A stretch of 64,000 bases of DNA from Gemmatimonadaceae bacterium. Lineage in GTDB: Bacteria > Gemmatimonadota > Gemmatimonadetes > Gemmatimonadales > Gemmatimonadaceae. The stretch covers positions 55,603-119,602 of the forward strand of contig JBGAKW010000015.1 of the NCBI GenBank assembly GCA_044224185.1, read 5' to 3'. Position 1 is the stretch's first letter. Every line of letters starts with the position of its first letter. The notes under the pieces are model-generated. The model had not been told where the DNA came from. It worked only from the letters and a program-made list of their open reading frames with translations, and made no database searches. Position numbers and translations under genes: made by a program. Positions 41,353 through 64,000 of the stretch are shown one piece after another.

Positions 41353-41391
41353 GTTAAGCAAAGCGGGAAAGGAAACGTTTCAAGGATCCCG

Positions 41392-42846: not shown

Positions 42847-42852
42847 GCACTA

Positions 42853-44096: not shown

Positions 44097-44190
44097 ACGT
44101 GGGGTGAAGGATATCGTCGGGGGAGGTGTCGCGCTGGAAGTGCGAGGAGTTAATTCGCACGATCTCGAAAAGAGATGCCCAGGGGGTGAG

Positions 44191-45810: not shown

Positions 45811-45878
45811 CAACGACCGCTTGATGTGCTTGTAGCACGCGCTCATTTTCGCCCCGTGCTGCGATCCACCCTTATTCG

Positions 45879-50143: not shown

Positions 50144-50162
50144 CACTCTCCCGCACTCCCTC

Positions 50163-51065
50163 ATGGCCGAAATCACCCGTCGTCGAACCGGAGAGCTACT
50201 TCGTGGGCTCTTCGAGATTCTCATGCAACATCCCGATGGACTACCGGCAGCGAAGGCGCTCGAACTGCTCGCGCAGAAGCTCCCACCGACGCCGTTCGAG
50301 AATGGGGATTTTGAGTCGGGCGGTCGTCGCTATGAGAAAATCGTCCGGTGGGGAACGGTCGATTGCGTGAAGGCCGAGTGGCTCATCAAAGCGCACGGTC
50401 GGTGGACGATTACAGACGAAGGAAAGAAGGCGTACGCTGCGTACCCTGACGACGAGGCGTTCTATAAACGCGCCGTCTTCTTGTATCACGAGTGGCGGAA
50501 GAGCACGCCGCCGAAAGAGACGAGTGGTGGAGTCAGCGCCGCTCCCATCGAATCGGACGCGGACGCCAAGGAGGCCAGCATCACTTTCGAGGAAGCCGAC
50601 GAACAAGCCTGGACCGAAATCGAGAAGCACCTAACGACGATGCCGCCGTACGATTTCCAGAACCTCGTAGCGTCGCTGCTCCGCGGCATGGGCTACTACG
50701 TCGGATGGATTGCTCCCCCTGGCAAGGACGGCGGCATCGACATCACCGCTTTCAACGACCCACTCGGCACGCGCCCACCGCGCATCAAAGTCCAGGTCAA
50801 GCGACAACAGAACAAAGTCGCTGTCGATGGCCTTCGTTCGTTCATGGCGTTGTTAGGCACAGATGATGTCGGGATCTTCGTGAATGCCGGTGGCTTCACG
50901 AGAGACGCCGAGGATGAGGCGCGCACGCAGCCGTCGCGCCGGGTGACGTTGGTGGACCTCGAGCGGCTGGTCGATCTGTGGACCGAGCACTATCACAAGA
51001 TCGACGACAAGGACAAGCGGAGGCTGCCACTCGTGCCGATCTACTTCCTGGCGCCTGAGGGATAG
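50163..51065 (+). CDS. Mrr-like restriction endonuclease (Mrr_N winged helix plus Mrr catalytic domain)
   Basis: N-terminal wHTH (YEKIVRWGTVDCVKAEWLIKAHGRWTITDEG). Catalytic core FQNLVASLLRGMGY...GKDGGIDITAF...IKVQVKRQ. Confidence 0.8.
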   Translation: MAEITRRRTGELLRGLFEILMQHPDGLPAAKALELLAQKLPPTPFENGDFESGGRRYEKIVRWGTVDCVKAEWLIKAHGRWTITDEGKKAYAAYPDDEAFYKRAVFLYHEWRKSTPPKETSGGVSAAPIESDADAKEASITFEEADEQAWTEIEKHLTTMPPYDFQNLVASLLRGMGYYVGWIAPPGKDGGIDITAFNDPLGTRPPRIKVQVKRQQNKVAVDGLRSFMALLGTDDVGIFVNAGGFTRDAEDEARTQPSRRVTLVDLERLVDLWTEHYHKIDDKDKRRLPLVPIYFLAPEG

Positions 51066-51070
51066 GAGAG

Positions 51071-51814
51071 ATGACCCTCACCTACGGCGACTACATCGTC
51101 TTCGTGGACGAAAGTGGTGATCACGGCCTGCAGTCAATCGATCCGCACTATCCCATCTTCGTCCTCGCGTTTGCCGTCTTTGCGAAGCACGACTACGCAA
51201 ACGTCTGCGTACCGGATCTCCTTCAATTCAAGTTCCGGTACTTCGGCCACGCTCAGACGATTCTTCACGAGCACGACATCAAGAAAGCCAAAGGACCATT
51301 TCGCATCCTCGTGGACTCATCACGACGTGCGTCCTTTCTGGCTGATCTAGGTTCGTTGATCGAACGAGTTCCTTTCACGCTTGTTGCCGTCGCTATTCAC
51401 AAGGCAGCGCTCAAGGAGAAGTACATCACGCCGAGCAATCCGTATGCGTTAGCGATGGAGTACGGGCTCGAGCGAGTCTGCGCGCTTCTCGAGGAAAAGG
51501 GGCAGACGGGACGACTCACTCACGTGATCTTCGAGTGCAGGGGCAGAAAGGAGGATCTCGAGTTGGAGGTGGAGTTCCGTCGAGTCACCGGAGGGGGAAA
51601 CGCCACGTGCAGCCGGGTCCCGCTCGAAATCGTGATGACAGACAAAAAATCAGTGTCGGCAGGACTCGAGATAGCCGATCTCGTCGCGCGGCCCATCGGG
51701 CTTCACGTGCTTCGTCCGGAACAACCGAATCGCACGTGGCCGGTCATCGAGCCGAAGTTTCGACGTGGGCGAAATGGCCGCTTGGACGGAATCGGTCTAA
51801 AGTGCTTCCCCTAA
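51071..51814 (+). CDS. DUF3800-family protein
   Basis: YIVFVDESGDHGL N-terminal signature, and LEIADLVARPIG near the C-terminus. RBS AGGAGAG. Only 5 nt after the mrr stop. Confidence 0.7.
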   Translation: MTLTYGDYIVFVDESGDHGLQSIDPHYPIFVLAFAVFAKHDYANVCVPDLLQFKFRYFGHAQTILHEHDIKKAKGPFRILVDSSRRASFLADLGSLIERVPFTLVAVAIHKAALKEKYITPSNPYALAMEYGLERVCALLEEKGQTGRLTHVIFECRGRKEDLELEVEFRRVTGGGNATCSRVPLEIVMTDKKSVSAGLEIADLVARPIGLHVLRPEQPNRTWPVIEPKFRRGRNGRLDGIGLKCFP

Positions 51815-51931
51815 CGCGCCTGAAAACGGAAGCGCCGGCCCTCGAGGATTCCCCCGAAGCCCGGCGCCGACCAGGATTCCCCAGTCCATTTGTACTCGAA
51901 TGATAGTTTTGCGGGACCCGAAGTCAACCGA

Positions 51932-51991
51932 CTCCAGCGGTCTCCAGCGGTCTCCAGCGGTCTCCAGCGGTCTCCAGCGGTCTCCAGCGGT
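51932..51991. repeat. Six perfect tandem copies of the 10-bp unit CTCCAGCGGT
   Basis: Read directly. Intergenic, between the DUF3800 stop (51814) and the HTH gene start (52072). Confidence 0.95.
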
Positions 51992-52009
51992 CTCCAGCGG
52001 TTCGCAACG
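51991..52009. promoter_or_regulatory. Palindrome TTCGCAA-cgatc-TTGCGAA immediately after the 10-bp repeat tract
   Basis: Read directly. Lies 63 nt upstream of the GTG at 52072. Confidence 0.4.
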
Positions 52010-52071
52010 ATCTTGCGAATGTTTCGATTGTTGCGTCTATTTCGTTTGGGACATTTGGCGGATAAGCGATC

Positions 52072-52527
52072 GTGAGCGCGACTCTCCAACTTCCGACGAC
52101 TGAAGAATCAGACGAGGCAAACCAAGCGCTGCGAGTCCTGACGCGACTGGCTACCGCTCGTGCCAAGAAGCACGTCCGTCTCCAAACGGATGGGCGCGAT
52201 GCGCGTACAATCATCGTACCTCGCAGAGCATTCAATCTGTTTCTTGAGGTTCTCGGGCAGATGGCAAGCGGCAACGCGGTCACGATTGTCCCCGTGCGCT
52301 CCGAGTTGACGACGCAGCAAGCGGCTGACCTTCTCAACGTCTCTCGTCCCCATCTGGTGTCTTTGCTCGAACGCGGCGAGCTCACCTATCGGAAGGTTGG
52401 CACGCATCGTCGCGTTCTCTTTACCGACCTCCAAGCATACAAGCGCAGCCACGATGCGAGTTCGCGCGACGCAGTCGCGGAGGTCACCCGACAGTCGCAG
52501 GAACTCGGGCTCGACGCGGAGTCCTGA
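52072..52527 (+). CDS. Excisionase-family (MerR-like) helix-turn-helix DNA-binding protein
   Basis: LTTQQAADLLNVSRPHLVSLLERGELTYRKVGTHRRVLFTDLQAY. GTG start. Confidence 0.65.
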   Translation: MSATLQLPTTEESDEANQALRVLTRLATARAKKHVRLQTDGRDARTIIVPRRAFNLFLEVLGQMASGNAVTIVPVRSELTTQQAADLLNVSRPHLVSLLERGELTYRKVGTHRRVLFTDLQAYKRSHDASSRDAVAEVTRQSQELGLDAES

Positions 52528-52594
52528 TGGTTTGCCTCGAGCATGAGCTACTCAGCGGTGCTCGCCCGCTGTGCCTAACGTGGATTGAGATTGA

Positions 52595-54100
52595 ATGACC
52601 GCACAACAAATCGTCGCGAAGCTCTGGAATTACTGCAACGTTCTGCGAGATGACGGGCTTTCGTACGGAGACTACGTAGAGCAGCTCACGTATCTCCTCT
52701 TCCTCAAAATGGCCCATGAACGCACGCAGGCTCCGTGGTCGCAAGCTTCAATCATTCCGCGCGGCTTCGACTGGCCAGCACTCCTCACGAAGGAAGGTGA
52801 CGCACTCGAGACGCAGTACCGGCACACCCTCGAGCGACTCGGCCGCGAGCCTGGAATGCTCGGGCTCATCTTCAGAAAAGCGCAGAACAAAATTCAGGAC
52901 CCTTCAAAGTTGCGCCGACTCATCGCTGACCTGATTGATCGCGAAGAATGGGTGTCTCTCGACGCGGACGTAAAAGGAGATGCGTACGAGGGGCTTCTCG
53001 AGAAGAACGCGCAGGATACAAAGGGCGGAGCAGGACAGTACTTCACACCACGTGCGCTCATTCAGGCAATCGTCGCGTGCATTTCGCCGCGACCGGGTGA
53101 GACGATCTGTGATCCTGCATGTGGTACAGGCGGATTTCTACTCGCGGCACACGACTACATCGTCGGCGAAAACAAAACACTCGATAAAAAGGCGAAGAAG
53201 CACCTAAAGCTCGAAGCACTCCACGGTGTAGAGCTCGTAGACGGTGTGGCGCGTTTGTGCGCGATGAACCTTCTCCTTCACGGAATCGGCCCGACCGCAG
53301 GAGAACAATCAGAGCCAGCGGTGACGGCTGACGACGCACTTCGTGCCGATCCCGGAGACCGCTTCGACGTAATTCTCACCAATCCACCGTTCGGTCGGAA
53401 ATCGAGCGTACGAATGGTGAACGCCGAGGGTGACGAAGAGCGACAGGATCTCACGGTGGTGCGGGACGATTTCTGGACCAGCACGGGCAACAAGCAACTC
53501 GCCTTCGTGCAGCACGTAAAGACGCTCCTGAAAATCGGCGGGCGCGCGGCGGTCGTAGTGCCCGACAACGTCTTATTTGAGGGTGGCGCTGGCGAAATCG
53601 TTAGGCGGAAGTTGCTGCACGAATGCGATGTGCACACCATGCTGCGTCTTCCAACTGGCATCTTCTACGCCCAGGGTGTGAAAGCCAACGTGCTCTTCTT
53701 CGATCGTCGCGCCGCGAGCCAAGCTCCGCAAACGAAGAAGTTGTGGATCTACGATCTTCGGACAAATGAGCACTTTACCCTGAAGACGAATCCGCTGAAG
53801 CGCGCGGCTCTCGACGAGTTCGTGAACTGCTACAATCCCTCCAACCGGCATGTCCGGAAGGCGACGTGGAGCGAGATGAAGTCGCCTGATGGACGGTGGC
53901 GAGCGTACGACTATGCGGAGTTGGTTGCGCGGGACAAAGCTTCGCTCGACGTATTTTGGCTTCGAGACGAAGCGCTCGAGGCTTCGGCAAATCTTCCCGC
54001 TCCCGAACTGATCGCGGCCGAAATTGTTGAGGATCTGCGCGCTGCGCTGGAAGCGTTCGAGGGCCTTGAGAGTGCACTGGCGGCGAGGGGAAAGACGTAA
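52595..54100 (+). CDS. hsdM: Type I restriction-modification N6-adenine DNA methyltransferase subunit (HsdM)
   Basis: HsdM_N-like LWNYCNVLRDDGLSYGDYVEQLTYLLFLK, motif I ICDPACGTGGFLL, and motif IV ILTNPPFG. Confidence 0.9.
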   Translation: MTAQQIVAKLWNYCNVLRDDGLSYGDYVEQLTYLLFLKMAHERTQAPWSQASIIPRGFDWPALLTKEGDALETQYRHTLERLGREPGMLGLIFRKAQNKIQDPSKLRRLIADLIDREEWVSLDADVKGDAYEGLLEKNAQDTKGGAGQYFTPRALIQAIVACISPRPGETICDPACGTGGFLLAAHDYIVGENKTLDKKAKKHLKLEALHGVELVDGVARLCAMNLLLHGIGPTAGEQSEPAVTADDALRADPGDRFDVILTNPPFGRKSSVRMVNAEGDEERQDLTVVRDDFWTSTGNKQLAFVQHVKTLLKIGGRAAVVVPDNVLFEGGAGEIVRRKLLHECDVHTMLRLPTGIFYAQGVKANVLFFDRRAASQAPQTKKLWIYDLRTNEHFTLKTNPLKRAALDEFVNCYNPSNRHVRKATWSEMKSPDGRWRAYDYAELVARDKASLDVFWLRDEALEASANLPAPELIAAEIVEDLRAALEAFEGLESALAARGKT

Positions 54101-54127
54101 GCTCTTGATGGATTCGCACTGAACGCA

Positions 54128-54162
54128 AAAGAGGTGGAATCAAAGTCCGATTCCACCTCTTT
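54128..54162. terminator. Perfect 14-bp hairpin after hsdM (aaagaggtggaatc - aaagtcc - gattccacctcttt) with flanking A/T runs. Probable bidirectional intrinsic terminator.
   Basis: Read directly. It lies between the convergent hsdM (+) and ADOP permease (-) genes. Confidence 0.65.
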
Positions 54163-54207
54163 CGTTTCCGGCGTCCGACTCAACTAGTTCGTCGGCATCA
54201 GATCACA

Positions 54208-56646
54208 TCACTCTGTCCGCAATGCCCGAATCGGATCAACCCCCGACGCACGGCGAGCCGGAATCCACACGGCCAGCAGCGCCACACTAATCAGCACAAG
54301 CGAGACGACGCCAATCGTGATTGGATCCGCGGAACTCCCGCCATACAGGAGACCGCGCACCAATCGCGCGGCGCCTAACGCCCCCACCAGCCCAAGGGCC
54401 ATCCCGATGCCGACGAGGCGCATCCCCTGTCCGATGACGAGCCGGACGACTTCACCTCGTGATGAACCAATGGCCATGCGAATGCCGATTTCACGCGTGC
54501 GTTGCGCGACGGAGTAGGACATGACGCCGTACATGCCAACGGCCGCCAGCAAGAGCCCTAACAATCCGAAGACGCCAAGCGCGGTGCCGGCGATGCGCGA
54601 CGGGAGAAGGGCGAGTCCCAAGTGCGTGGTGAGCGACTTGATATTCCCCAACGGGAGCGTCGGGTCCATTGCGGCCACCTCGCTCCGAAGCGTCGGCACC
54701 AGATTCATCGGATCGCCCGCGGTGCGCACGACGATGTTCATGCCGGAACTCCAGTTCTGAAGCTGCGGAAAATAGATGAAGGCCGTGGGCTCCTCGCCTA
54801 ACGAGCGATACTTGCCGGTGGTCGTCACGCCGACGATGATGCACTCTTTCGCTCCATGCTTGACCTTGGCGCCGATGGGGTCGCGTCCCTGCAGGAAACG
54901 ATCGACGAAGCGCTGGTTGACGATGATGGCAGGAGCGGCGGTACTATCGTCCTGCAGCGTGAAGGTCCGCCCCTTGAGCAATGGGACCTGCAATGCCTCG
55001 AAGTATCCGGGCGAGACCACGCCGTACTGAATGGACATGCTCTCCTCGGGCGCGGGAACATAGCCATCGACTTCCACACCGGTGTCACTGTTGCTGAGGC
55101 CGAGTTGCGGATTGTCGATGAGGCCGACGCCTTCGACGCCGGGGAGTGCTTTCACGCGCTCCATGAGTCGGTTGTAGAATTGCTCCGTCCGGGCGCGCGT
55201 GTATCCCTGCAGCTGCGGGTCGACATCGGCCATCAGGACGTTTTGCGCTGCGAACCCTTTGTCGAGATTCGTGGCAAGGCGGATGTTGCGGAGGAAGAGC
55301 CCCGCGCAGGTGAGGAGCATGAGCGAGAGCGCCATTTGCGCGACGACGAGCGGCGCGCTGAGGCGCGAGCGCGAACCACCGGCGGGCGCTTCACCTTTGA
55401 GGGCGGGGACGAGCGAGGGACGCGTGGCTTGCAAGGCGGGGGCGAGACCGAAGAGCATGCCGACTGCCAGCGAGATTGCCAACGAAAACGCAAGCACCGG
55501 TATCGACAGCTGCAAATTCGGCTGCATGTCGATGTCCATCGGAATGCGAACGCCGTTGGCAATGCTGATGGCCCACGATGCAATGAGAAGCCCGACGACG
55601 CCGGAGACGATGGCGAACAGGATACTCTCGGTGAGGAGCTGCCGAATGAGCCGCGCGCGGCGCGCGCCGATGCTCAAGCGCACCGCCATTTCGCGTGAGC
55701 GCTCGCTCGCACGGGCGAGGAAGAGATTGGCGACGTTGACGCAGGCGATGAGGAGCAGCATGGCGACGACCGCCATGATGAGCGACGACATCTGCACCTG
55801 TGTCTGGCGAAACATCGGATGAATGCCGGCGTCACTCTGCCTAACGAGCAGCATCCCAGATCCCTTGTACTGCCGCGGGTACTGCTCGGCGATTTGCCGG
55901 TTGATCGCCGTGAGACGCGCCTGTGCCTGCTCCGCGGTTACCCCCGGCTTCAGGCGTGCGATCATGTTCATGAAGTTGTTGTCGCGCTTCTCGAATACGT
56001 CATTGCCGCGCCCCGAGATGTGCACGAGCTGCATGAGCGGGACAAACACGGTGGGTGCGACCATCGGCATCGCGCCGACGAACTCCTTGGCGGTGATCCC
56101 GACAATCGTGTACGCCTGTCCGTTGATGATCATCTGCTTGCCGACGATGGCCGGATCGCCCCCAAACTTTCGCTGCCACGACGAGTAGGAGAGAATGGCA
56201 ACAGGATGCGCACCGTAGCCGACGTCTTCATCTGCCGTGAAGCTGCGGCCGTGGGCCATCTCGACGCCTAACGTGGGGAAGTATGAGGCAGACACCACCG
56301 ACGCCATGGCGCGCTCGTTCTGGCCGTTGAACGACAGGTTGATGAACTCGTAGTCCCAGATGGCGGCATTCTGGAAGAGATCCTGACCGCGCTCCTTCAC
56401 GTCGACATAGTGCGGCACGTTCGACGAGCCATAGCTCATGCCGGGCCATGAACGATAGATCTGCACGACTTCTTCGGGGGCGCGCGTCCCGGGTAGCGGG
56501 CGCAATAGCAGCGCTTCGATGGCCGAAAAGACGGCGGTGTTGAGACCGATGCCTAACGCCAACGTCAGGACGCCGATGGCCGTGAAGAGTGGGCGCCGCA
56601 AGAGCGAGCGGACCGCGAACCGGATGTCTTGAAACAGCGTCCCCAT
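54208..56646 (-). CDS. ADOP-family duplicated orphan ABC permease (MacB-like, two FtsX-type modules)
   Basis: 812 aa, N-terminal MGTLFQDIRFAVRSLLRRPLFTAIGVLTLALGIG, duplicated 4-TM modules with a large periplasmic domain, and no adjacent ATPase gene. Confidence 0.85.
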   Translation of the reverse strand: MGTLFQDIRFAVRSLLRRPLFTAIGVLTLALGIGLNTAVFSAIEALLLRPLPGTRAPEEVVQIYRSWPGMSYGSSNVPHYVDVKERGQDLFQNAAIWDYEFINLSFNGQNERAMASVVSASYFPTLGVEMAHGRSFTADEDVGYGAHPVAILSYSSWQRKFGGDPAIVGKQMIINGQAYTIVGITAKEFVGAMPMVAPTVFVPLMQLVHISGRGNDVFEKRDNNFMNMIARLKPGVTAEQAQARLTAINRQIAEQYPRQYKGSGMLLVRQSDAGIHPMFRQTQVQMSSLIMAVVAMLLLIACVNVANLFLARASERSREMAVRLSIGARRARLIRQLLTESILFAIVSGVVGLLIASWAISIANGVRIPMDIDMQPNLQLSIPVLAFSLAISLAVGMLFGLAPALQATRPSLVPALKGEAPAGGSRSRLSAPLVVAQMALSLMLLTCAGLFLRNIRLATNLDKGFAAQNVLMADVDPQLQGYTRARTEQFYNRLMERVKALPGVEGVGLIDNPQLGLSNSDTGVEVDGYVPAPEESMSIQYGVVSPGYFEALQVPLLKGRTFTLQDDSTAAPAIIVNQRFVDRFLQGRDPIGAKVKHGAKECIIVGVTTTGKYRSLGEEPTAFIYFPQLQNWSSGMNIVVRTAGDPMNLVPTLRSEVAAMDPTLPLGNIKSLTTHLGLALLPSRIAGTALGVFGLLGLLLAAVGMYGVMSYSVAQRTREIGIRMAIGSSRGEVVRLVIGQGMRLVGIGMALGLVGALGAARLVRGLLYGGSSADPITIGVVSLVLISVALLAVWIPARRASGVDPIRALRTE

Positions 56647-56690
56647 GAGCTAGACCTCGAGTGCAGGTGATTCGCCTAACAATTCCGAGA

Positions 56691-56747
56691 AACCGTGGTG
56701 GTGCTGAGAACCCGCAGTGGTGCCGACATACCGTAGCGGTGCCGACG
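56691..56747. repeat. Three imperfect tandem 19-bp repeats (aaccgtggtggtgctgaga / acccgcagtggtgccgaca / taccgtagcggtgccgacg) in the spacer between the two ADOP genes
   Basis: Aligned by eye, about 14/19 identities between neighbouring units. Confidence 0.5.
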
Positions 56748-56785
56748 CACCCTAACGCTGCCGAGCCTTCGTAGAACGCCAGCGA

Positions 56786-59227
56786 TCATTCGGCGCGCAA
56801 CGCGACGATCGGATCGACGCTGGCGGCGCGTCGCGCCGGAATCCAGACGGCGAGGAGCGCTACGCTGGCGAGCACCGTCGTCACGACGACGATGGTCAAT
56901 GGATCGGTGGCGCCTCCGCCGTAGAGCAGTCCGCGTACGAGTTGCGCCGCGCCTAACGCGCCGGCCACGCCGATGGCCGTCCCGATCCAGACCAGGCGCA
57001 TCCCCTGTGAAATGACGAGGCGCACGACGCCGGTCTGGCTCGAGCCAACGGCCATGCGAATCCCGATCTCACGAGTGCGTTGGGCGACCGAATACGACAT
57101 GACGCCGTAGACGCCGACGGCTGCAAGGATGAGCCCAAGAACTCCGAAGACGCCTAACGCCGTTCCGGCAATCCGCGACGGAAGCAGCGCGATACCCAGG
57201 TGCTCCTCCATTGACTTGACATCGGAGAGGGGCATGTCGGCATCGAGCGCCGCAACTTCGGTACGCAACTGCGGAATCAGGGTTGAGGGATCGCCGCTGG
57301 TGCGGATGATGAGATTCGTCCACGACGAATAGTTCTGGGCGAGCGGGATGAACATGTAGGCCTTGGGATCCTCGCCTAACGAGCGATACTTCCCCGTCGT
57401 GGTAACGCCGACGATCGTACGGTCCACGCCCATCACTTTCACTTTGGCGCCAATCGGATCGCGTCCCTGATAAAACCGATCCACAAAACGTTGGTTCACC
57501 ACCATCACCTGCGCCGCAGCACTATCGTCGCGCGCCGTAATGGTGCGTCCCTTGACCATCGGGATGCGCAACACCTCGAAGTAGCCCGGGGAGACAATCG
57601 AATACGTGATGCTCATGTTCTCGTCGGGCGACCGCGTGTAGCCGGCAACGTCGACACCGCCATCGCTGTTGGTGAGTCCGAGCGGAAGATCGTTGGCAAA
57701 TGCGACGTCGACGACTCCGCGCTGAGCGCGCAGTCGTTCGCTCAAGCGTGCAAAAAGTTGCTCACCTCGCGCGCGGTTGTACCCTTGCAACGATGGATCG
57801 ATGGCGGCCAGCAGGATGTGATCGGACGCGAATCCTTTCTCGACGGCAGCGGCATTTCCGATGTTGCGCAGAAACAGGCCGGCGCACGCGAGGAGGACGA
57901 GCGAGAGCGCGACCTGCGCAACGACGAGAGCGGACGAGAGTCGCGACCGCGACTGCCCGGCGGGGAGCTCTCCCTTGAGCGCGGGAATCAGCTGTGGCCG
58001 CGTCGCTTGCAGCGCGGGTGCGAGTCCGAACAAGACGCCGACTGCCACCGAGATAGCGAGGGAGAACGCCAGGACAGGCATCGACAGCTGCAAATTCGGG
58101 CGCAACGCGACATCCATCGGGATGCTCACCGCGTTGGCGATGCCAATGGCCCACGCAGCGACGAGAAGACCGACAATGCCGGCGATGACGGCGAAGAGAA
58201 TACTCTCCGTAAGCAGTTGGCGAACGAGTCGGCTTCGCTCAGCCCCGATGCTCAACCGCACTGCCATCTCCCGCGACCGCTCGCTCGCGCGCGCGAGAAA
58301 GAGGTTGGCGACGTTGACGCAGGCAATGAGCAGGAGCATGCCGACCACCGCCATGATGAGCGCGGACATTTGCACCTGCGTCTGTCGGAAGGAGGGATGA
58401 ATGCCAGCCTCCGACTGCCTAACGAGCGTAATGCCGCTGCGTCGATACTGATCGGGGTGCGACTCGGCGAGCTGAGCATTGATTTGCTCGAGCCGCGCCT
58501 TGGCCTGTTCGAGCGATACGCCCGCCTTGATGCGCGCGATGAGCGTGAGGAACGACTCGCTCCAGTTGTCGTCCAGCTTTCCGCGTTCGGGGGCGATCTC
58601 GGGATATTGCGTGAGCGGAACGTAGAGCGCGGGGACGATCATCGGCATCAGTCCCGCGAAGCCTCGTCCGGCGATTCCGATGACGCTGTAGCTGCGCCCA
58701 TTTAGGATTACGTCACGTCCCACGAGAAGCGGATCGGCGCCGAATTGTCGCTGCCAGGTGTCGTAACTCAACACCGCCACACGATGCGCGTTCAGTCCAT
58801 TCTCTTCGTCGGCGCTGAAGCCGCGACCACGTTCCATACGCACGCCGAGCGTGGAAAACGTTGACGCGGACGCCAAGACGCCCATGACCCGCGCGCTCTT
58901 GCCGCCAAAGGAGAGACTCATTGGGGTAAAGGCCCACGCGCCGACATCGGCGAGAACGTCGTTGCTTCGCTCCCGCAGCGCGCGAAAGTGCGGCAGCGAC
59001 GAGGAGTTATAGCGCTCCCCGCCCGGCGAACTGCGGTAGACCTGCACCAACTCCTCCGGAGCGCGTACGCCGCCTAACGGGCGAAGGAGCATTGCCTCGA
59101 TGGCCGAGAAAACGGCCGTGTTGAGCCCGATGCCCAGCGCGAGCGTCAAAAGACCAACGGCGGTGAAGAGCGGGTGCCGAAGAAGGGACCGAACCGCAGA
59201 CCGCAGGTCTTGGACTAGCGTGGACAT
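56786..59227 (-). CDS. ADOP-family duplicated orphan ABC permease (tandem paralogue)
   Basis: 813 aa, collinear with the downstream paralogue (MSTLVQDLRSAVRSLLRHPLFTAVGLLTLALGIG...). Confidence 0.85.
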   Translation of the reverse strand: MSTLVQDLRSAVRSLLRHPLFTAVGLLTLALGIGLNTAVFSAIEAMLLRPLGGVRAPEELVQVYRSSPGGERYNSSSLPHFRALRERSNDVLADVGAWAFTPMSLSFGGKSARVMGVLASASTFSTLGVRMERGRGFSADEENGLNAHRVAVLSYDTWQRQFGADPLLVGRDVILNGRSYSVIGIAGRGFAGLMPMIVPALYVPLTQYPEIAPERGKLDDNWSESFLTLIARIKAGVSLEQAKARLEQINAQLAESHPDQYRRSGITLVRQSEAGIHPSFRQTQVQMSALIMAVVGMLLLIACVNVANLFLARASERSREMAVRLSIGAERSRLVRQLLTESILFAVIAGIVGLLVAAWAIGIANAVSIPMDVALRPNLQLSMPVLAFSLAISVAVGVLFGLAPALQATRPQLIPALKGELPAGQSRSRLSSALVVAQVALSLVLLACAGLFLRNIGNAAAVEKGFASDHILLAAIDPSLQGYNRARGEQLFARLSERLRAQRGVVDVAFANDLPLGLTNSDGGVDVAGYTRSPDENMSITYSIVSPGYFEVLRIPMVKGRTITARDDSAAAQVMVVNQRFVDRFYQGRDPIGAKVKVMGVDRTIVGVTTTGKYRSLGEDPKAYMFIPLAQNYSSWTNLIIRTSGDPSTLIPQLRTEVAALDADMPLSDVKSMEEHLGIALLPSRIAGTALGVFGVLGLILAAVGVYGVMSYSVAQRTREIGIRMAVGSSQTGVVRLVISQGMRLVWIGTAIGVAGALGAAQLVRGLLYGGGATDPLTIVVVTTVLASVALLAVWIPARRAASVDPIVALRAE

Positions 59228-59361
59228 GCCGGGCGCTCCGTTGGACTCGCGGGGGGCAAGGGCGTAAGGACCTTCCCCGTACGGCGCTACAGGGTTGAAG
59301 GTGTCAATCGGCGTTGGACACGACTACCTCGGCTCGCTCAGAACGGTCTGTTTGTTTCGTC

Positions 59362-60534
59362 CTATCCCCAAACTTCGCTCAGAAGTCGCATCCAGTTCTT
59401 GCCAATCACCTTCTCGATCCGCGCCGACGAGTGCCCCGCCTTGGCCATGAGGTCGGCGATGACGTCGAGGCGACGCGGTGAGTTGATGTCGGGGACGAAA
59501 GTGAAGACCTCCGGATCTTCACCCGGTGCCGAGATGCCGCGCGCTCGCCGCGCCATGATCGACTCGCGGTGAATCGCTCGGAATTCGGGGGTAAGGTCGA
59601 TGGGGGTGATCGAGTTGTCGCTCCCAACTCCGACATGATCCTCGCCACAGACATCGATCGCATGCGACAAGTGGCGCATGAAATCCTCGGCCATCGGCTG
59701 TCCCGAGACTCGCAGGAATGGCATGAGGTAGATGCCCACCACGCCCCCGCGGTCGGCCAGTCGTTTGAGAATCTCGTCCGGCTTGTTGCGCGGGACGTCG
59801 GCGACGGCGCTGCATCCGGAATGTGTGATGGCAACCGGTTTGGCCGACGTCATGATGCCGTCGGTCGTCGTCTGGCGCCCGCAGTGCGACAAGTCGACCA
59901 GCGAGCCTAACGAGTTGAGCCGCTCGACGACCGCCCGGCCGACGGTACTGAGGCCAGCGTTGGCCCGCTCGAGGCAACCATCGCCTAACAAGTTGCGCAC
60001 GTTGTACGTGAGCTGGACGATGCGCACGCCCAGGTCATGGAAGAGATCGACGCGGGTGAGGTCGTTCTCGTACATCGTGCCGTCCTGAAAGCCGAGCACG
60101 ATGCCGAGTCGCTTTGAGCCTTTAGCGGCGCGGAGGTCGGCGACGGAGCGTACCTGGGTCCAGACGTCGGGGTGGGCGGCGAGCTCGCGATTCCAGAAGG
60201 CGATGGCGCGTACGGTCTGTTCGAATGCAGTCGCGCCGACACCGTTGCCGTTGACGGTGACATTGACGGCGGTCATTCCAGACGCCTTGGCATTTGCCAC
60301 CATCGCCGCCGAGAGGGGCTTCGCGAACATCCCTTCGACGTTGAACGGCCCCGGCGTGGCGAGCATGTCGATCGCGATGGCATTGTCGTAGCCGGGCCAC
60401 ATCGCGCGCGTCCTGTCCATCGGCTCCGGCGCGACGCTCGCGGCAACGGCGTCGAGTCCGCCTAACGACGGAAGTATTGCAGCTGCCGAGGCGTGCCGGG
60501 CAAAGTCGCGGCGTGAGATGGGGTCGTTAGGCAT
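59362..60534 (-). CDS. Tat-signal M19 membrane dipeptidase family protein (second copy)
   Basis: MPNDPISRRDFARHASAAAILPSLGG leader, plus VDLSHCGRQT, AITHSGCSAV and VGVGSDNSITP. The ORF is trimmed to the ATG at 60534. Confidence 0.8.
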   Translation of the reverse strand: MPNDPISRRDFARHASAAAILPSLGGLDAVAASVAPEPMDRTRAMWPGYDNAIAIDMLATPGPFNVEGMFAKPLSAAMVANAKASGMTAVNVTVNGNGVGATAFEQTVRAIAFWNRELAAHPDVWTQVRSVADLRAAKGSKRLGIVLGFQDGTMYENDLTRVDLFHDLGVRIVQLTYNVRNLLGDGCLERANAGLSTVGRAVVERLNSLGSLVDLSHCGRQTTTDGIMTSAKPVAITHSGCSAVADVPRNKPDEILKRLADRGGVVGIYLMPFLRVSGQPMAEDFMRHLSHAIDVCGEDHVGVGSDNSITPIDLTPEFRAIHRESIMARRARGISAPGEDPEVFTFVPDINSPRRLDVIADLMAKAGHSSARIEKVIGKNWMRLLSEVWG

Positions 60535-60605
60535 GTGGGAGGCGGAAAAAGTGCTCGGGGGTGTGACGGTGTGCGGCCGGCGCCGCCGCCGCATCGCGGG
60601 GCGTC

Positions 60606-63605
60606 TTAGCGGCGTGCCGGCGTTCCCAGCCGCCCCACAGCCTCGAGAAGTTCGGTCGAGGAGAAGGGCTTTTCCAGAAGGGAAACACCTTGATCGAGCA
60701 CGCCATGCCGCGAGACGATGTCGGCGGTGTAGCCCGACACGAACAACACGCGAAGCGACGGATGAGCCGCCAGCAAGCGATCCGCGAGCTCACGCCCGCT
60801 CATTCCAGGCATGATGACATCGGCGACGAGGATGTCGATGGTGCCAAGGTGCGCCGCCAGCTCCAGCGCGCGCTCGCCCGACTCCGCGGCGTGCACATTG
60901 TAGCCCCCACGTTGAAGAAAGCGCGTGCTCAGCTCTCGTACCAGCGCATCATCCTCGGCCACGAGGACCACACCGGACGTCGTGCGCGTATCCGGTTCCA
61001 GCGCCTGATCGTTAGGCGGTGACGGTACGCGTTCCCGCTGTGGGAGGTACACGGTAAACGTGGAACCAACGCCCGGCGTGGACTCGACCTCGATCGTCCC
61101 ACCGCTCTGTGTGACGAAGCCGTACACCGTGGCGAGTCCGAGTCCCGTCCCTTTTCCGACTTCCTTGGTGGTGAAGAATGGCTCGAAGAGTCGCGCGCGC
61201 GATGCTTCGTCGATGCCTTTGCCCGTGTCGCTCACGGCGAGCGAGACGTACGACGTTGGTGCCTCGTTAGGCTCGCGCGAACGCTGCACCGATGACGTCG
61301 TGATTCGTAGCGCCCCGCCCGTTGGCATGGCATCGCGTGCGTTGAGCGCCAGGTTGACCAACACCGTATGCATCTGCGCCTGGTCGACGAAGGTTGTGAG
61401 TACGCCAGGCGCCAGCGAGATGTCGATTTGAATATCCTCGCCTATCAAGCGATGCAGCATGCGCGCGGCCTCGCGCACGACATCGTTGAGGTCGAGCTGC
61501 TCCGGCTGCAAGACTTGCTTCCGGCTGTAGGCGAGGAGTTGGCGCGTGAGCGACGCGGCGCGGTCGCTCGCTCGCATGACCTGCTCCAATTCGTCGCGTA
61601 CGTCCTCGCCCGTTTCGAGGCGAGCGCGCGCCACCTGCGCGAAGCCAGAGATGACGGTGAGGATGTTGTTGAAATCGTGCGCGATGCCGCCGGCCAGACG
61701 TCCCACCGCTTCGGTCTTCTGCGACTGGAGGAGTTGCGCGGCGAGTTGCCGCTTCGCGGTCACGTCGATCGCGTAGACAAGTCGAGCCTCTATTCCCTGA
61801 TACAGGAATTGGGCGCCGTACACTTCAACATCGATCAAGGAGCCATCTCGCTTGCGATGACGACTTGCCGTGACGAGCACCTGCGCGGAGTCGCGGTCTG
61901 GGAGTCGCTGCGTGAACAGATGCACGTCCTCCGGGCGCCGAAGATCAAGCATCGTGAGCTTGACGAACTCTTCTCGCGACCAGCCGTACTTCTCGATTGC
62001 TGCGTCGTTTACTTCCAGTATCTGCAGGGAATCTCGCGCATACACCCACATCGGAACGGGTGAGGCGCTGAAGAGGACGCGATAGCGTGCTTCCGACTCC
62101 GCTAACGCGCGCAAGGCGCGCTCACGCTTCGTGACGTCGTGCGTGTTGACGAGGATGTGCGTGAGCGATTCGTCGATTCCCAGAATGGGTGTCATGCTCG
62201 ACTCGAGCAGGCGCGGTTCACCGGCGACGATTATTTCCGCTGCCGGGAGCTGCACGCGCTGCTTTGACGTGACGGCCCGATCAAGCGCACGTAGCGCTTC
62301 GTCGCGAAGTTGCGGCGGCGCCACGTCCTCGAAAAGGCGTCCGATCAACGCCTTACGGGGGAGCCCCGTGGTGATCGTGAGCTGCGTGTTGAGCTCTACA
62401 CATCGAAAGCAGCCGTTCCCTTCGTTGCGAAACAAGATCAACCCACTCGGCGCTGAATCCAGGACCAGCGAGACGCGCCGCTCGCGGTCGATGATCTCCG
62501 ACCGCGCGATATTTCGCTCTGTGACATCGCGCGAGACTGAGACAACACCGAACACCACGCCACGCTCGTCGCGAAGTGGTGCTTTCACCGTGTGGAATTC
62601 GCGAGCGCCGTCTGGCAAGGTGTAGTTGCGCTCGAGTGAGACCGGTTCTCCAATACGAATCACACGTTCATCGGCGTCGGCAATACGTTGCGCCGCTTCG
62701 GGTGGCACGAAGTCGTCCAGTACACGTCCGAGAAGTTCTTCGCGCTCGCGTCCGAGAATCTCGGCGCCCGCTCGGTTTGCAATGATTGTGCGCCCTTCAC
62801 GATCGCGCGCGTAAATCAAGTCGGGCGAGGCATCGATGAGGGTGCGGAGAAGCTGGTCGGAGGCTCGGAGCGACTGTTCCATGGCTCGCCGTTCGGCGAG
62901 TTCACGTTCACGGTCGGCGAGGAGACGTGCGTTGTAGATCGCAAGCGCGAGTCGTTGCGCGACCGCACTCGCAATGGTCGCTGCTTCCTCGTCATACGTC
63001 CGCCGTCCCTCGATTGAACAGATTTGTACAACGCCCAGCAACTCGTCGCGCGCGATGAGGGGACAGAAGATCGCCGAGATCGGCGACATCTGTCTCGTTA
63101 GGGCGAGATGCGTCGGACAGTAGGCGTTTCGCTGCTGGAATTCTTCTGTGAGTTCCGGGAGCAGCACGATGCGTCGCGTGCGAAGGACTTCGGCAAATGG
63201 CGATTCTGGTAGCGCCATTGCGTCGCCGACGCGTTCCCGCACGGCGAGTAAAAGCTCAGGCCAAATCGGGTGCGAGGAGTGCGCGATGGCGACGCGTTCA
63301 AGGCGTCCGGCACTCGAGAGGAGATCGATGGTGCAGTAATCGCCGAAATCGGGAACGGCAATTTCGGCAGCAGCGCGCACGGTCGCATCGAGATCTGAGG
63401 CGGACTCGAAGAGCGTCGTCATCCGCGCCAGGAGCGCGAGCCCAATATCGATGTCGCGCGCAGAGGTGTCGGCGGATGTCACGTCGCTGCGTAGCTCACG
63501 ATATAAGGAAGTGCAGGCGAGCGGATCCACGCTCGAACAAGCGGAGAATAGCGCCGTGCCGAACTCTTGGCGAGCGGCATTAGATTGAAAGGCTGCACGG
63601 CACAA
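60606..63605 (-). CDS. Cytoplasmic hybrid sensor histidine kinase (GAF, several PAS domains, HisKA, HATPase, receiver)
   Basis: H-box HDFNNILTVI, NLALNARDAM, DTGKGID, GTGLGLA, and receiver VLVAEDDALV...DILVADVIMPGMSG. The start may instead be the ATG at 63422. Confidence 0.85.
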   Translation of the reverse strand: MCRAAFQSNAARQEFGTALFSACSSVDPLACTSLYRELRSDVTSADTSARDIDIGLALLARMTTLFESASDLDATVRAAAEIAVPDFGDYCTIDLLSSAGRLERVAIAHSSHPIWPELLLAVRERVGDAMALPESPFAEVLRTRRIVLLPELTEEFQQRNAYCPTHLALTRQMSPISAIFCPLIARDELLGVVQICSIEGRRTYDEEAATIASAVAQRLALAIYNARLLADRERELAERRAMEQSLRASDQLLRTLIDASPDLIYARDREGRTIIANRAGAEILGREREELLGRVLDDFVPPEAAQRIADADERVIRIGEPVSLERNYTLPDGAREFHTVKAPLRDERGVVFGVVSVSRDVTERNIARSEIIDRERRVSLVLDSAPSGLILFRNEGNGCFRCVELNTQLTITTGLPRKALIGRLFEDVAPPQLRDEALRALDRAVTSKQRVQLPAAEIIVAGEPRLLESSMTPILGIDESLTHILVNTHDVTKRERALRALAESEARYRVLFSASPVPMWVYARDSLQILEVNDAAIEKYGWSREEFVKLTMLDLRRPEDVHLFTQRLPDRDSAQVLVTASRHRKRDGSLIDVEVYGAQFLYQGIEARLVYAIDVTAKRQLAAQLLQSQKTEAVGRLAGGIAHDFNNILTVISGFAQVARARLETGEDVRDELEQVMRASDRAASLTRQLLAYSRKQVLQPEQLDLNDVVREAARMLHRLIGEDIQIDISLAPGVLTTFVDQAQMHTVLVNLALNARDAMPTGGALRITTSSVQRSREPNEAPTSYVSLAVSDTGKGIDEASRARLFEPFFTTKEVGKGTGLGLATVYGFVTQSGGTIEVESTPGVGSTFTVYLPQRERVPSPPNDQALEPDTRTTSGVVLVAEDDALVRELSTRFLQRGGYNVHAAESGERALELAAHLGTIDILVADVIMPGMSGRELADRLLAAHPSLRVLFVSGYTADIVSRHGVLDQGVSLLEKPFSSTELLEAVGRLGTPARR

Positions 63606-63634
63606 TCACGCTTACCGAACACGCACAGGACTGA

Positions 63635-64000
63635 ATGGCTCCCCAGTTCATCTATGTCATGAAAGCGCTCACGAAGGTCGTACCCCCTTCGCGAGTGATC
63701 CTTAATAACATTTGGCTTTCCTTTTATCCCGGCGCCAAAATCGGCGTACTGGGAAGTAATGGCGCCGGTAAGTCGTCGATCCTGAAGATCATGGCCGGCG
63801 TCGACAGCGATTGGAACGGTGAGGCGTGGGCCGCCCAGGGGACCAAGATCGGCTACCTGGCCCAGGAGCCACAGCTCGACGCATCGCTCAACGTGCAACA
63901 GAACGTGGAACTCGCGGTGAAGGAGCAGCGCGGTCTCCTCGATCGGTTCAACGCGATATCCAACGAGTTCGCCGATCCCGATCTCGATGACGTGAAGATG
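63635..64000 (+). CDS. ettA: ABC-F ATPase EttA (energy-dependent translational throttle), 5' partial, runs off the window
   Basis: My own translation is MAPQFIYVMKALTKVVPPSRVILNNIWLSFYPGAKIGVLGSNGAGKSSILKIMAGVDSDWNGEAWAAQGTKIGYLAQEPQLD..., closely resembling the E. coli EttA N-terminus including Walker A. It is missing from the ORF track because no stop falls inside the window. Confidence 0.85.
   Translation, partial: MAPQFIYVMKALTKVVPPSRVILNNIWLSFYPGAKIGVLGSNGAGKSSILKIMAGVDSDWNGEAWAAQGTKIGYLAQEPQLDASLNVQQNVELAVKEQRGLLDRFNAISNEFADPDLDDVKM

What the first reader, a model, noticed from the sequence alone, without database searches (positions are those of the whole stretch)
54541..57180. Paralogue comparison shows the motif gained or lost purely by synonymous Leu codon choice
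The two ADOP permease paralogues align residue-for-residue around SRIAGTALGVFG. At Ala-Leu-Gly-Val, paralogue 1 (complement of 54541-54600) reads GCG CTT GGC GTC. Paralogue 2 (complement of 57121-57180) reads GCG TTA GGC GTC, which creates CGTTAGGC at 57153. Four codons later the situation reverses: paralogue 1 has TTG TTA GGG CTC (a near-motif) where paralogue 2 has GTT CTT GGG CTC. Other copies sit at homologous positions in both genes, each encoding Leu-Gly or Val-Arg: 54374/56952, 54797/57375 and 55840/58428. CTT to TTA needs two substitutions toward a rare AT-rich codon. This is internal evidence that motif copies turn over through silent changes, as expected for DNA-level selection or a directed conversion process.
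Basis: seen in the sequence. Interest (0 to 1): 0.6.

Follow-up and report, generated by a model that had tools for sequence, protein, structure and literature searches.

The report
Hyper-abundant 8-base word in Gemmatimonadaceae
The eight-letter DNA word CGTTAGGC is written into this wastewater bacterium's genome about once every 750 bases, mostly by choosing rare synonymous codons; the two duplicated permease genes show copies being gained one at a time, a pattern best known from the DNA-uptake signals of Neisseria and Haemophilus and apparently undescribed for this word.

Summary
The two ADOP permease paralogues (54208-56646 and 56786-59227, minus strand; 66% aa identity) carry five CGTTAGGC copies each. 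Three lie at homologous codons. Three of the four unshared copies differ only in the Leu codon (TTA versus CTT/CTC/CTG).

The window holds 85 copies against 1.3 expected. 43% of [A/P/S/T]-Leu-Gly sites and 74% of permissive Pro-Asn sites are occupied. Sharing between the paralogues is therefore what near-saturation predicts. Outgroups show the unshared copies are gains, and some copies elsewhere cost amino-acid changes.

The same word is hyper-abundant in many other Gemmatimonadaceae. These include cultured Gemmatirosa kalamazoonensis, with 701 copies on a 1.04 Mb replicon. It is also hyper-abundant in Chthoniobacterales, a different phylum.

The word is strand-symmetric, nearly non-polar, more evenly spaced than random, sparse in low-GC segments, and not m6A-methylated in G. 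kalamazoonensis. The best reading is an uptake-signal-like DNA-level drive. That mechanism is inferred, not shown. I found no paper describing this word.

The parts
54208..56646 (-). ADOP duplicated permease, paralogue 1 (812 aa)
   Evidence: ORF. NCBIfam TIGR03434 at 876 bits, cutoff 622. 73% aa identity to the single ADOP of the syntenic relative L047.
56786..59227 (-). ADOP duplicated permease, paralogue 2 (813 aa)
   Evidence: ORF. TIGR03434 at 836 bits. 66% aa and 67% nt identity to paralogue 1; only 271 of 534 identical residues share the codon.
54373..54380 (-). CGTTAGGC copy in p1 (GCG TTA GGC, Ala-Leu-Gly); homologous to 56951
   Evidence: L047 has TTA GGG here and L040 has the full word.
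56951..56958 (-). CGTTAGGC copy in p2 (GCG TTA GGC); homologous to 54373
54796..54803 (-). CGTTAGGC copy in p1 (TCG TTA GGC, Ser-Leu-Gly); homologous to 57374
   Evidence: It sits in the longest identical run (23 nt) of the paralogue alignment. L047 has TCG TTA GGT.
57374..57381 (-). CGTTAGGC copy in p2 (TCG TTA GGC); homologous to 54796
55839..55846 (-). CGTTAGGC copy in p1 (CTC GTT AGG CAG, Val-Arg frame); homologous to 58417
   Evidence: Also present in L047. More distant ADOPs have Val-Pro (GTN CCG) here, so this copy cost an amino-acid change.
58417..58424 (-). CGTTAGGC copy in p2 (CTC GTT AGG CAG); homologous to 55839
   Evidence: The homologous p1 site 54574-54581 reads GCG CTT GGC. Outgroups have TTG or CTN, so this is a gain in p2.
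54574..54581 (-). p1 site homologous to 57152, without the word (CGCTTGGC: GCG CTT GGC)
56551..56558 (-). p1-only copy (GCG TTA GGC); p2 has GCG CTG GGC at 59132-59139
   Evidence: All 11 outgroups have a non-TTA codon here, so this is a gain in p1.
56266..56273 (-). p1-only copy (ACG TTA GGC); p2 has ACG CTC GGC at 58844-58851
   Evidence: Outgroups have CTN, so this is a gain in p1.
59072..59079 (-). p2-only copy (CCG TTA GGC, Leu-Gly); p1 has CCG CTA CCC (Leu-Pro) at 56491-56498
   Evidence: Most outgroups have Leu-Pro.
54556..54563 (-). Near-copy TGTTAGGG in p1 (TTG TTA GGG); it differs at positions 1 and 8 only
   Evidence: T at position 1 and G or T at position 8 are the commonest one-off variants involving the word's outer positions in the window.
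1..64000 (.). All 85 copies of CGTTAGGC/GCCTAACG (32 on +, 53 on -). Extended preference: K before and R after.
   Evidence: Density is 1.1/kb in coding DNA and 3.2/kb in non-coding DNA. All four open frames are used, plus the two stop-containing frames: 7 of 36 genes end inside a copy.
26742..26749 (+). One copy that supplies the stop codons of two convergent genes (TAG of 23742-26747 on +, TAA of 26744-27946 on -)
43400..54200 (.). Word-poor, lower-GC segment: a type I restriction-modification island (HsdR 45879-48794, HsdS 48791-50143, Mrr-like 50163-51065, DUF3800, HTH_17, HsdM 52595-54100)
   Evidence: Pfam and PADLOC. 5 copies versus 18.7 expected; GC 59%.
28000..32300 (.). Second word-free, lower-GC segment
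   Evidence: 0 copies versus 7.4 expected; GC 61.7%.

Best explanation
CGTTAGGC (extended form K-CGTTAGGC-R) is a hyper-abundant, strand-symmetric genomic signal. It is kept near saturation by a force that reads the DNA, not the protein.

Shown:
- Wherever a protein allows the word, it is written with otherwise rare codons (TTA, AGG, CTA, CCT). The permissive contexts are [A/P/S/T]-Leu-Gly, Pro-Asn, Val-Arg, Leu-Thr and stop codons.
- The word is about three times denser outside genes than inside.
- Copies arise independently in each ADOP paralogue by synonymous and occasionally non-synonymous change.
- Copies erode by point mutation.

The paralogue pattern (three shared, four unshared copies) is the footprint of this gain-and-decay equilibrium.

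Inferred (most likely mechanism): an uptake-signal-like molecular drive, as for Pasteurellaceae USS and Neisseriaceae DUS. A DNA-uptake or recombination component would prefer fragments carrying the word. Alleles with a copy would then replace alleles without it by homologous recombination until roughly every kilobase holds one. The recognising protein is unknown. It may have moved between Gemmatimonadaceae and Chthoniobacterales.
For: A DNA-level force is shown.
- 85 copies versus 1.28 expected.
- 63 versus 1.83 under the synonymous-shuffle null.
- Site occupancy is 43% for [APST]LG and 74% for PN.
- Half of all TTA codons lie inside the word.
- Outgroups polarise the unshared copies as gains, and some copies involve amino-acid replacements.
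- Non-coding density is 3.2/kb versus 1.1/kb in coding DNA, with the same flank preference in both.

Several properties resemble uptake signals.
- Density is 0.7-1.7/kb on both strands.
- Polarity against GC skew is only 54-57% on a complete 1.04 Mb replicon of G. kalamazoonensis with 701 copies.
- Spacing is more even than random. The CV is 0.908 versus 0.999 +/- 0.038 (P=0.0045), the dispersion index is 0.72, and gaps of 100-400 nt are deficient. In the window's rich segments the CV is 0.71.
- Lower-GC segments and the R-M island are word-poor.
- The encoded peptides are enriched: obs/exp is 1.8 for [APST]LG and 2.6 for PN[ADEGV], versus 1.1 and 0.9 in word-free Acidobacteriota loci. USS genomes show approximately doubled tripeptides and word-free unique genes (PMC2817400).
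- Transition-type one-off variants are enriched 3-83x, as mutation-drive balance predicts.
- None of 34 IMG/VR hits shows dispersed enrichment.
- The word is not among the m6A motifs of the KBS708 methylome (PMC3974934).
- Type IV pilus genes are reported in Gemmatimonadota from all environments but marine (PMC10581226).
Against: - No competence, transformation or uptake bias has been shown for any Gemmatimonadota or Chthoniobacterales, and no competence gene lies in the window.
- The identical 8-mer in two phyla is not predicted by a lineage-specific uptake receptor and needs an added assumption of horizontal transfer.
- The R-M island is syntenic with relative L047. Its low word density is therefore not simply recent arrival.
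- Close inverted pairs are not in excess, unlike Neisseria DUS.
- The strong excess of TGTTAGGC (83x) without CATTAGGC fits a strand-specific 5-methylcytosine as well as it fits tolerance of T at position 1.
- The window spacing result used segments chosen after seeing the data.
Confidence: 0.4

Rival explanations
1. The word is an asymmetrically modified site, for example 5-methylcytosine at the first C. It is maintained or spread by a cognate repair or nicking activity. This would be a non-palindromic counterpart of cyanobacterial HIP1, which may itself serve transformation or self-recognition.
For: - Specificity is sharp over eight positions, as for a restriction-modification-type reader.
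- The word begins with CpG, and the C-to-T product TGTTAGGC is 83x enriched while the opposite-strand product CATTAGGC is absent. About 10% of copies are the T variant in the window, in G. kalamazoonensis and in Chthoniobacterales.
- HIP1 is a comparably abundant octamer recognised by methylases and now linked to transformation (bioRxiv 10.64898/2026.06.24.733823).
- A mobile methyltransferase would explain sharing between phyla.
Against: - SMRT sequencing of KBS708 found only RGATCY, ATGCAC and CCAGN7TCA, so the word's adenines are unmethylated.
- The word is not palindromic.
- The only methyltransferase in the window is the HsdM of a type I system, and such sites are bipartite.
- No known short-patch repair produces 35- to 290-fold enrichment or multi-base codon replacements such as CCG to AGG.
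Confidence: 0.2
2. The word is a recombination or nuclease-control signal of the Chi kind, or a 'self' tag that spares host DNA from a degradative or defence nuclease. Selection rather than drive keeps it dense.
For: - It is the most over-represented octamer of the genome, as Chi is in E. coli.
- It was not found enriched in viral contigs.
- There is a weak but significant leading-strand preference that flips with GC skew, chi-square about 7.4 computed by hand from the counts.
Against: - Polarity is only 54-57%, and the strand ratio does not flip across the skew change in the window. Known Chi and KOPS words are strongly polar (my own knowledge).
- Density is several times that of an 8-base Chi.
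- The word is built from rare codons rather than recruited from common ones.
- Even spacing with diminishing returns has no obvious basis in this model.
Confidence: 0.12
3. The word is the binding site of an abundant sequence-specific DNA-binding protein (nucleoid organisation or condensin-like loading). Selection favours a regular array.
For: - Spacing is regular and counts are under-dispersed.
- Specificity is sharp.
- The word is present on the two sampled replicons of KBS708, megaplasmids 1 and 2.
Against: - I know of no nucleoid protein with an 8-9 bp asymmetric site used thousands of times inside genes at the cost of rare codons (my own knowledge).
- Word-poor segments of 4-10 kb are tolerated.
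- This model gives no explanation for the peptide distortion beyond what the drive model offers.
Confidence: 0.1
4. There is no DNA-level signal. The pattern would come from codon usage, protein motifs, a decayed repeat element, or assembly artefact.
For: The word overlaps common dipeptides (Leu-Gly) in membrane proteins such as ADOP.
Against: - The synonymous shuffle keeps proteins and codon usage and gives 1.8 versus 63.
- The word occurs in six frames, on both strands and in non-coding DNA.
- There is no conservation beyond about one base on either side.
- There are no indels at copies in alignments.
- The sequence is identical in independent assemblies from at least 20 sequencing runs.
Confidence: 0.01

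Closest known systems
Uptake signal sequence (USS, 9-base core AAGTGCGGT) of Pasteurellaceae
   Same: - About one copy per kb, on both strands.
- Mostly inside genes, in several reading frames.
- Distorts tripeptide frequencies and sometimes protein sequence.
- Missing from lineage-specific genes.
- Spacing more even than chance.
- One-off variants present.
(PMC2817400; compared.)
   Different: - The word is different and has no AT-rich flank.
- The phyla are different, with no demonstrated competence.
- Occupancy of permissive sites is very high (43-74%).
- The word relies on the rarest Leu codon.
- The same word occurs in two phyla.
DNA uptake sequence (DUS, GCCGTCTGAA and dialects) of Neisseriaceae, read by the minor pilin ComP
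   Same: - A short non-palindromic word at roughly 1/kb.
- Denser outside genes than inside.
- Flank preferences differ between lineages (T before the word in 82 of 97 Chthoniobacterales copies), reminiscent of DUS dialects (PMC3630211, title and abstract listed).
   Different: - No excess of inverted pairs acting as terminators.
- No ComP-like receptor has been identified.
- The 8-base core is identical, not dialectal, across two phyla.
Highly Iterated Palindrome 1 (HIP1, GCGATCGC) of cyanobacteria
   Same: An octamer at comparable density, conserved, quasi-regularly spaced, of long-unknown function and now linked to transformation.
   Different: HIP1 is palindromic and is the target of the known methylases DmtA and DmtC. 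This word is asymmetric and is not m6A-methylated in KBS708.
Chi (GCTGGTGG in E. coli) and polar words such as KOPS
   Same: It is the most over-represented octamer of its genome and is a candidate recombination signal.
   Different: Those words are strongly co-oriented with replication and much sparser (my own knowledge). Here polarity is 54-57% and density 0.7-1.7/kb.

Membership tests
DNA uptake signals (USS/DUS) | One specific short word present hundreds to thousands of times per genome (about 1/kb), on both strands | tested here: met
   85 copies per 64 kb. 701 copies per 1.04 Mb, split 335/366 between strands.
DNA uptake signals (USS/DUS) | Competent cells take up DNA carrying the word in preference to DNA without it | not testable with these tools
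   This needs an uptake or transformation assay. The cultured carrier G. kalamazoonensis KBS708 is available.
DNA uptake signals (USS/DUS) | The genome encodes DNA-uptake machinery and a sequence-specific receptor | not tested
   None is in the window. Type IV pilus genes are reported for Gemmatimonadota in general (PMC10581226). No receptor candidate is known.
DNA uptake signals (USS/DUS) | Accumulates in resident DNA and is sparse in recently acquired or lineage-specific DNA | tested here: inconclusive
   The R-M island has 5 versus 18.7 expected, and two other lower-GC segments have 0 versus 7.4 and 0 versus 4.7. Low-GC bins are poorer in KBS708. However, part of the island is syntenic in L047.
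DNA uptake signals (USS/DUS) | Coding copies sit in tolerated frames and raise the frequency of the encoded peptides | tested here: met
   Frames in the window are LG 31, PN 14, VR 8, LT 6. In KBS708 they are 245/126/30/31 in the same order. Peptide obs/exp is 1.8 and 2.6, versus 1.1 and 0.9 in controls.
Chi / KOPS-type polar words | Strong co-orientation with the direction of replication | tested here: not met
   57:43 and 54:46 on the two GC-skew arms of a complete replicon. The strand ratio is the same on both sides of the skew change in the window.
HIP1-type methylated palindromes | Palindromic word | tested here: not met
   CGTTAGGC is not its own reverse complement.
HIP1-type methylated palindromes | The word is the target of resident DNA methyltransferases | tested here: inconclusive
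   It is not among the three m6A motifs of the KBS708 SMRT methylome. 5mC is not assessable from that method or with these tools.
REP/MITE-type dispersed repeats | A conserved unit of tens of bases, mostly intergenic, often a hairpin | tested here: not met
   Conservation ends one base beyond the 8-mer. 74% of copies are in frame inside genes, without indels.
Restriction-modification recognition site of the adjacent type I system | Bipartite site specified by HsdS, usually avoided rather than enriched | tested here: not met
   The word is contiguous and enriched. HsdR, HsdS and HsdM were identified, but the word is equally abundant in genomes sampled without this island.

The most novel reading that the evidence does not exclude
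CGTTAGGC(R) is a third, previously unrecognised DNA-uptake or self-recognition signal. It operates in soil and wastewater Gemmatimonadaceae and, with the same core, in Chthoniobacterales (Verrucomicrobiota). That would imply sequence-specific natural transformation in two poorly cultured phyla and a recognition module exchanged between them.
Probability: 0.3. Interest if true: 0.85.

Novelty: new member of a known kind. Interest (0 to 1): 0.66.

Why it matters
Hyper-abundant uptake-type words are experimentally established in only two families, Pasteurellaceae and Neisseriaceae, with HIP1 in cyanobacteria a recent candidate.

A third word at equal or higher density would:
- point to sequence-biased DNA exchange, or another genome-wide DNA-reading system, in abundant but little-studied soil and wastewater bacteria;
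- give a simple marker for telling native from imported DNA, and for binning, in these groups;
- offer a natural experiment on how strongly such a drive can bend codon usage and protein sequence, since up to three quarters of permissive sites are occupied using the rarest codons.

The word is also present in the cultured, fully sequenced G. kalamazoonensis KBS708, so the mechanism is directly testable.

Tried and rejected
- Replication origin at the GC-skew switch near 31 kb: no dnaA there, and the neighbours are peptidases. The strand ratio of the word does not flip there.
I ran no further search on it.
- Gene conversion between the tandem paralogues as the source of shared copies: no tracts of raised identity.
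- A different 'dialect' in word-free Gemmatimonadaceae (L033, AACGGTGG): it is an 8-bp tandem repeat at two sites, not a dispersed word.
- Genome scan for three copies within about 80 nt: it returned mostly tandem repeats in unrelated taxa. Only Gemmatimonadaceae loci (L181, L218) were clearly enriched in a dispersed way; one Bacteroidaceae-labelled locus (L190) also scored above background.
- Genome scan for inverted pairs: about half the rows were chance hits or repeat elements (Veillonella, Pelomonas KK5, Methylotenera). It was useful only after counting copies per locus.
- Viral scan: nothing enriched, but the probe was narrow.
- Literature: no paper in the library links either strand of the word to a genome feature.
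- The exact 61-mer of the window is not in the species-representative genomes. The closest ADOP anywhere is 73% identical, so no close-strain comparison was possible.
- The 21-kb phage-like element of KBS708 could not be fetched.
- Rfam and tRNA scans of the window were empty.
Full report
THE OBSERVATION

The two long minus-strand ORFs at 54208-56646 and 56786-59227 are both ADOP duplicated permeases. They score 876 and 836 bits against TIGR03434, whose cutoff is 622.

A protein-guided codon alignment gives 66% amino-acid and 67% nucleotide identity. Only 271 of 534 identical residues use the same codon, so synonymous sites are close to saturated.

Each gene carries five copies of CGTTAGGC in the sense orientation.
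- Three pairs are at homologous codons: 54373/56951 and 54796/57374 (x-CG TTA GGC, Leu-Gly), and 55839/58417 (C GTT AGG C, Val-Arg).
- Four copies are unshared.
- 57152 in p2 reads GCG TTA GGC, against GCG CTT GGC in p1.
- 56551 and 56266 in p1 have TTA, against CTG and CTC in p2.
- 59072 in p2 reads TTA GGC (Leu-Gly), against CTA CCC (Leu-Pro) in p1.

Its coordinates are one base high, '58428' should be 58417, and it missed three of the four unshared copies.

IS IT MORE THAN CHANCE?

The window has 85 copies, against 1.28 in dinucleotide-preserving shuffles with a maximum of 5.

- Independent codon usage predicts about 1 TTA-GGC among the 59 Leu-Gly pairs whose flanks allow the word; 31 are observed. 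The other three frames show similar excesses. Half of all TTA codons (31 of 62) lie inside the word.
- Shuffling synonymous codons within each gene preserves proteins and per-gene codon usage. It gives 1.83 +/- 1.32 coding copies (maximum 7) against 63 observed.

The stated refutation criterion is therefore not met.

WHAT THE WORD LOOKS LIKE

It is sharply eight bases long. Each single-mismatch variant occurs 0-9 times against 85. There is a preference for T or G before it and for a purine after it. That preference is the same in coding and non-coding copies.

The word uses all four open reading frames. In my crude gene set the counts are Leu-Gly 31, Pro-Asn 14, Val-Arg 8 and Leu-Thr 6. The two stop-containing frames are used too: 7 of 36 genes end inside a copy, and one copy at 26742 terminates two convergent genes.

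Density is 1.1/kb in coding DNA and 3.2/kb in non-coding DNA.

Measured against the peptide sites that could host the word without changing the protein, occupancy is 31/72 for [APST]-Leu-Gly, 14/19 for Pro-Asn, 8/37 for Val-Arg and 6/26 for Leu-Thr.

WHAT THE PARALOGUES SHOW

Five Leu-Gly sites are permissive in both genes. p1 fills four, p2 fills three, and both fill two, where independence predicts 2.4. Sharing therefore needs no common descent.

There are no conversion tracts. Identity in the 30 nt either side of shared copies is 0.55-0.78 against a gene-wide median of 0.67. The shared copies sit inside short identical runs, including the longest one in the alignment (23 nt), within otherwise diverged sequence.

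The locus is syntenic with a metagenomic relative, L047, which has a single ADOP 73% identical to p1. With this and ten further Gemmatimonadaceae ADOPs as outgroups:
- the three unshared synonymous sites carry CTN or TTG in every outgroup, so they are gains in one paralogue;
- at the two shared Leu-Gly sites L047 keeps the rare TTA but has GGT or GGG, a one-off copy;
- several copies coincide with amino-acid replacements: Val-Pro to Val-Arg in p1, p2 and L047; Pro-Thr to Pro-Asn in L005 and L006; Arg-Gly to Leu-Gly in L035.

WHERE ELSE THE WORD OCCURS

The window comes from a Gemmatimonadaceae bacterium that recurs nearly identically in at least 20 activated-sludge, wastewater and bioreactor metagenome runs from 2017-2025.

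- The word is 15-65x enriched in many Gemmatimonadaceae MAG loci and absent from others.
- It is equally enriched in at least a dozen independent Chthoniobacterales (Verrucomicrobiota) MAGs, up to 2/kb. There it is preceded by T in 82 of 97 copies.
- The cultured Gemmatirosa kalamazoonensis KBS708 has it as well. I fetched its whole 1,040,503-bp megaplasmid 2. It holds 701 copies (335 on +, 366 on -) against 2.4-19 expected from Markov models of order 2-4.
- A 50-kb sample of KBS708 megaplasmid 1 holds 36 copies.

WHAT THE COMPLETE REPLICON ADDS

- Polarity: on the two arms defined by cumulative GC skew the strand split is 43:57 and 54:46. This is significant (chi-square about 7.4, computed by hand from the counts) but far from the strong skew of Chi or KOPS. 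It is of the size expected from the 1.75:1 sense preference combined with gene orientation.
- Spacing: counts per 10 kb are under-dispersed (variance/mean 0.72). The spacing CV is 0.908 against 0.999 +/- 0.038 (P=0.0045), and gaps of 100-400 nt are deficient. The window shows the same (CV 0.71 within rich segments), but there I chose the segments after seeing the data.
- Composition: low-GC bins and the largest gaps are word-poor, although the word is AT-richer than the genome. In the window three lower-GC segments are depleted, including the type I R-M island at 43.4-54.2 kb with 5 copies against 18.7 expected. Part of that island (HsdM, HTH, Mrr) is syntenic in L047, and HsdM is more similar (86%) than the flanking core genes (79-80%). 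Recent exchange is plausible but not shown.
- Pairs: close inverted pairs are no more frequent than chance.
- One-off variants: against an order-3 Markov model, TGTTAGGC is 83x enriched and A or G at position 1 about 12x. The three AT-to-GC transitions in the central TTA are 3-7.5x enriched. Transversions, the G-to-A changes and the C-to-T change at position 8 are not enriched. This looks like erosion of copies by the substitutions most readily fixed in a 73% GC genome, together with either tolerance of T at position 1 or a hypermutable first cytosine.

METHYLATION

The published SMRT methylome of KBS708 reports three m6A motifs, RGATCY, ATGCAC and CCAGN7TCA, each more than 99% modified (PMC3974934). 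The word is not among them, so its adenines are not methylated. 5mC is not assessed reliably by that method.

OTHER CHECKS

- Peptides that the word encodes are over-represented relative to amino-acid composition: 1.8x for [APST]LG and 2.6x for PN[ADEGV] in the window, against 1.1x and 0.9x in word-free Acidobacteriota loci. The word-free Gemmatimonadaceae sample is small and intermediate.
- A probe of IMG/VR for two T-prefixed copies within 30 nt gave 34 hits, none with dispersed enrichment.
- No Rfam family or tRNA is in the window.
- No paper in the library connects either strand of the word with a genomic feature.

MECHANISM

It is shown that a DNA-level force writes the word into every tolerant position, on both strands, in genes and between them, against codon preference and sometimes against the protein. 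It is also shown that copies are gained independently and erode.

The mechanism itself is inferred. The combination of properties matches point for point what is described for uptake signal sequences (PMC2817400) and what a fragment-based uptake drive would produce. Those properties are:
- about 1/kb and no real polarity;
- spacing more even than chance;
- poverty in atypical DNA;
- peptide distortion;
- a cloud of one-off variants;
- absence of m6A.

I therefore rank an uptake-signal-like drive first, at 0.4.

Against it: competence is undemonstrated in these phyla, and an identical core in two phyla needs a transferred receptor.

A strand-specifically modified site of the HIP1 kind (0.2) is kept alive by the CpG start and the TGTTAGGC excess. 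A Chi-like or self-tag signal (0.12) and a nucleoid-protein array (0.1) are weaker. Codon, protein, repeat-element or artefact explanations are excluded.

COMPARISON AND NOVELTY

The word behaves like USS or DUS. Membership cannot be claimed, because the defining property, biased uptake, is untested. It fails the defining tests for Chi/KOPS (polarity), HIP1 (palindromy, known methylation) and REP/MITE elements. I file it as a new member of the kind 'hyper-abundant short genomic signal words', apparently undescribed. Its unusual features are extreme occupancy, reliance on the rarest codons, and presence in two phyla.

VERDICT

The paralogue comparison is one local view of a genome-wide and lineage-wide phenomenon that merits experimental follow-up in G. 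kalamazoonensis.

Noticed in passing
window 43996-54100: A type I restriction-modification island with HsdR, HsdS, an Mrr-like nuclease, DUF3800, an HTH_17 protein and HsdM. It lies between DsbD/redoxin genes and the ADOP pair. The relative L047 has HsdM (86% identical, more than the flanking core genes at 79-80%), PIN, HTH_17 and Mrr at the same place but no HsdR or HsdS. This looks like a defence-island hotspot with changing content.
   Followed up: partly
window 60606-63605: A 999-aa hybrid histidine kinase lies between the ABC-ATPase gene (63635 onward) and the M19-like dipeptidase gene (59362-60594). In L047 those two genes are adjacent, so this is an insertion or deletion difference between the lineages.
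   Followed up: no
window about 31000: Cumulative GC skew reaches a minimum here, with negative skew to the left and positive to the right. It does not simply follow gene orientation. No dnaA or other replication gene is nearby, and the cause is unexplained.
   Followed up: partly
window 26742-26749: A single copy of the word provides the TAG stop of the plus-strand kinase gene and the overlapping TAA stop of the convergent minus-strand M20 peptidase gene.
   Followed up: yes
L058, L120, L085, L145, L158, L152, L139, L011, L015, L079 (Chthoniobacterales/Verrucomicrobiota MAG loci): These loci have the same 8-base core at 0.4-2 copies per kb in a different phylum, there as the 9-mer TCGTTAGGC (T before the word in 82 of 97 copies). 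The link between the two phyla is unexplained.
   Followed up: partly
NZ_CP007130.1 (L316-L336) and window: The variant TGTTAGGC makes up about 10% of copies (85 versus 701; 8 versus 85), while the opposite-strand CpG product CATTAGGC is absent. This could be a strand-specific hypermutable cytosine or tolerance of T at position 1.
   Followed up: partly
NZ_CP007130.1 (for example L315): G. kalamazoonensis megaplasmid 2 also holds families of longer repeat units, built from tandem and inverted GGACTGAAGAAGGA-type and GAGTCCCGAGTCCC-type units. They look REP/MITE-like and are absent from the window.
   Followed up: no
L033 1426-1540 and 9245-9320: Two arrays of the octanucleotide tandem repeat (GGAACGGT)n occur in a word-free Gemmatimonadaceae MAG.
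   Followed up: partly
L052-L156 (Veillonella loci), L068/L076/L110/L162 (Pelomonas sp. KK5), L121 (Methylotenera oryzisoli): Inverted pairs of the same 8-mer recur in these unrelated genomes. They are probably part of longer repeat elements or small repeat-rich contigs.
   Followed up: no
whole window: Nearly identical sequence is present in at least 20 activated-sludge, wastewater and bioreactor metagenome runs from 2017 to 2025. The organism is a widespread treatment-plant Gemmatimonadaceae. The species-representative genomes held no exact match to a 61-mer of the window, and the closest ADOP anywhere is 73% identical.
   Followed up: partly
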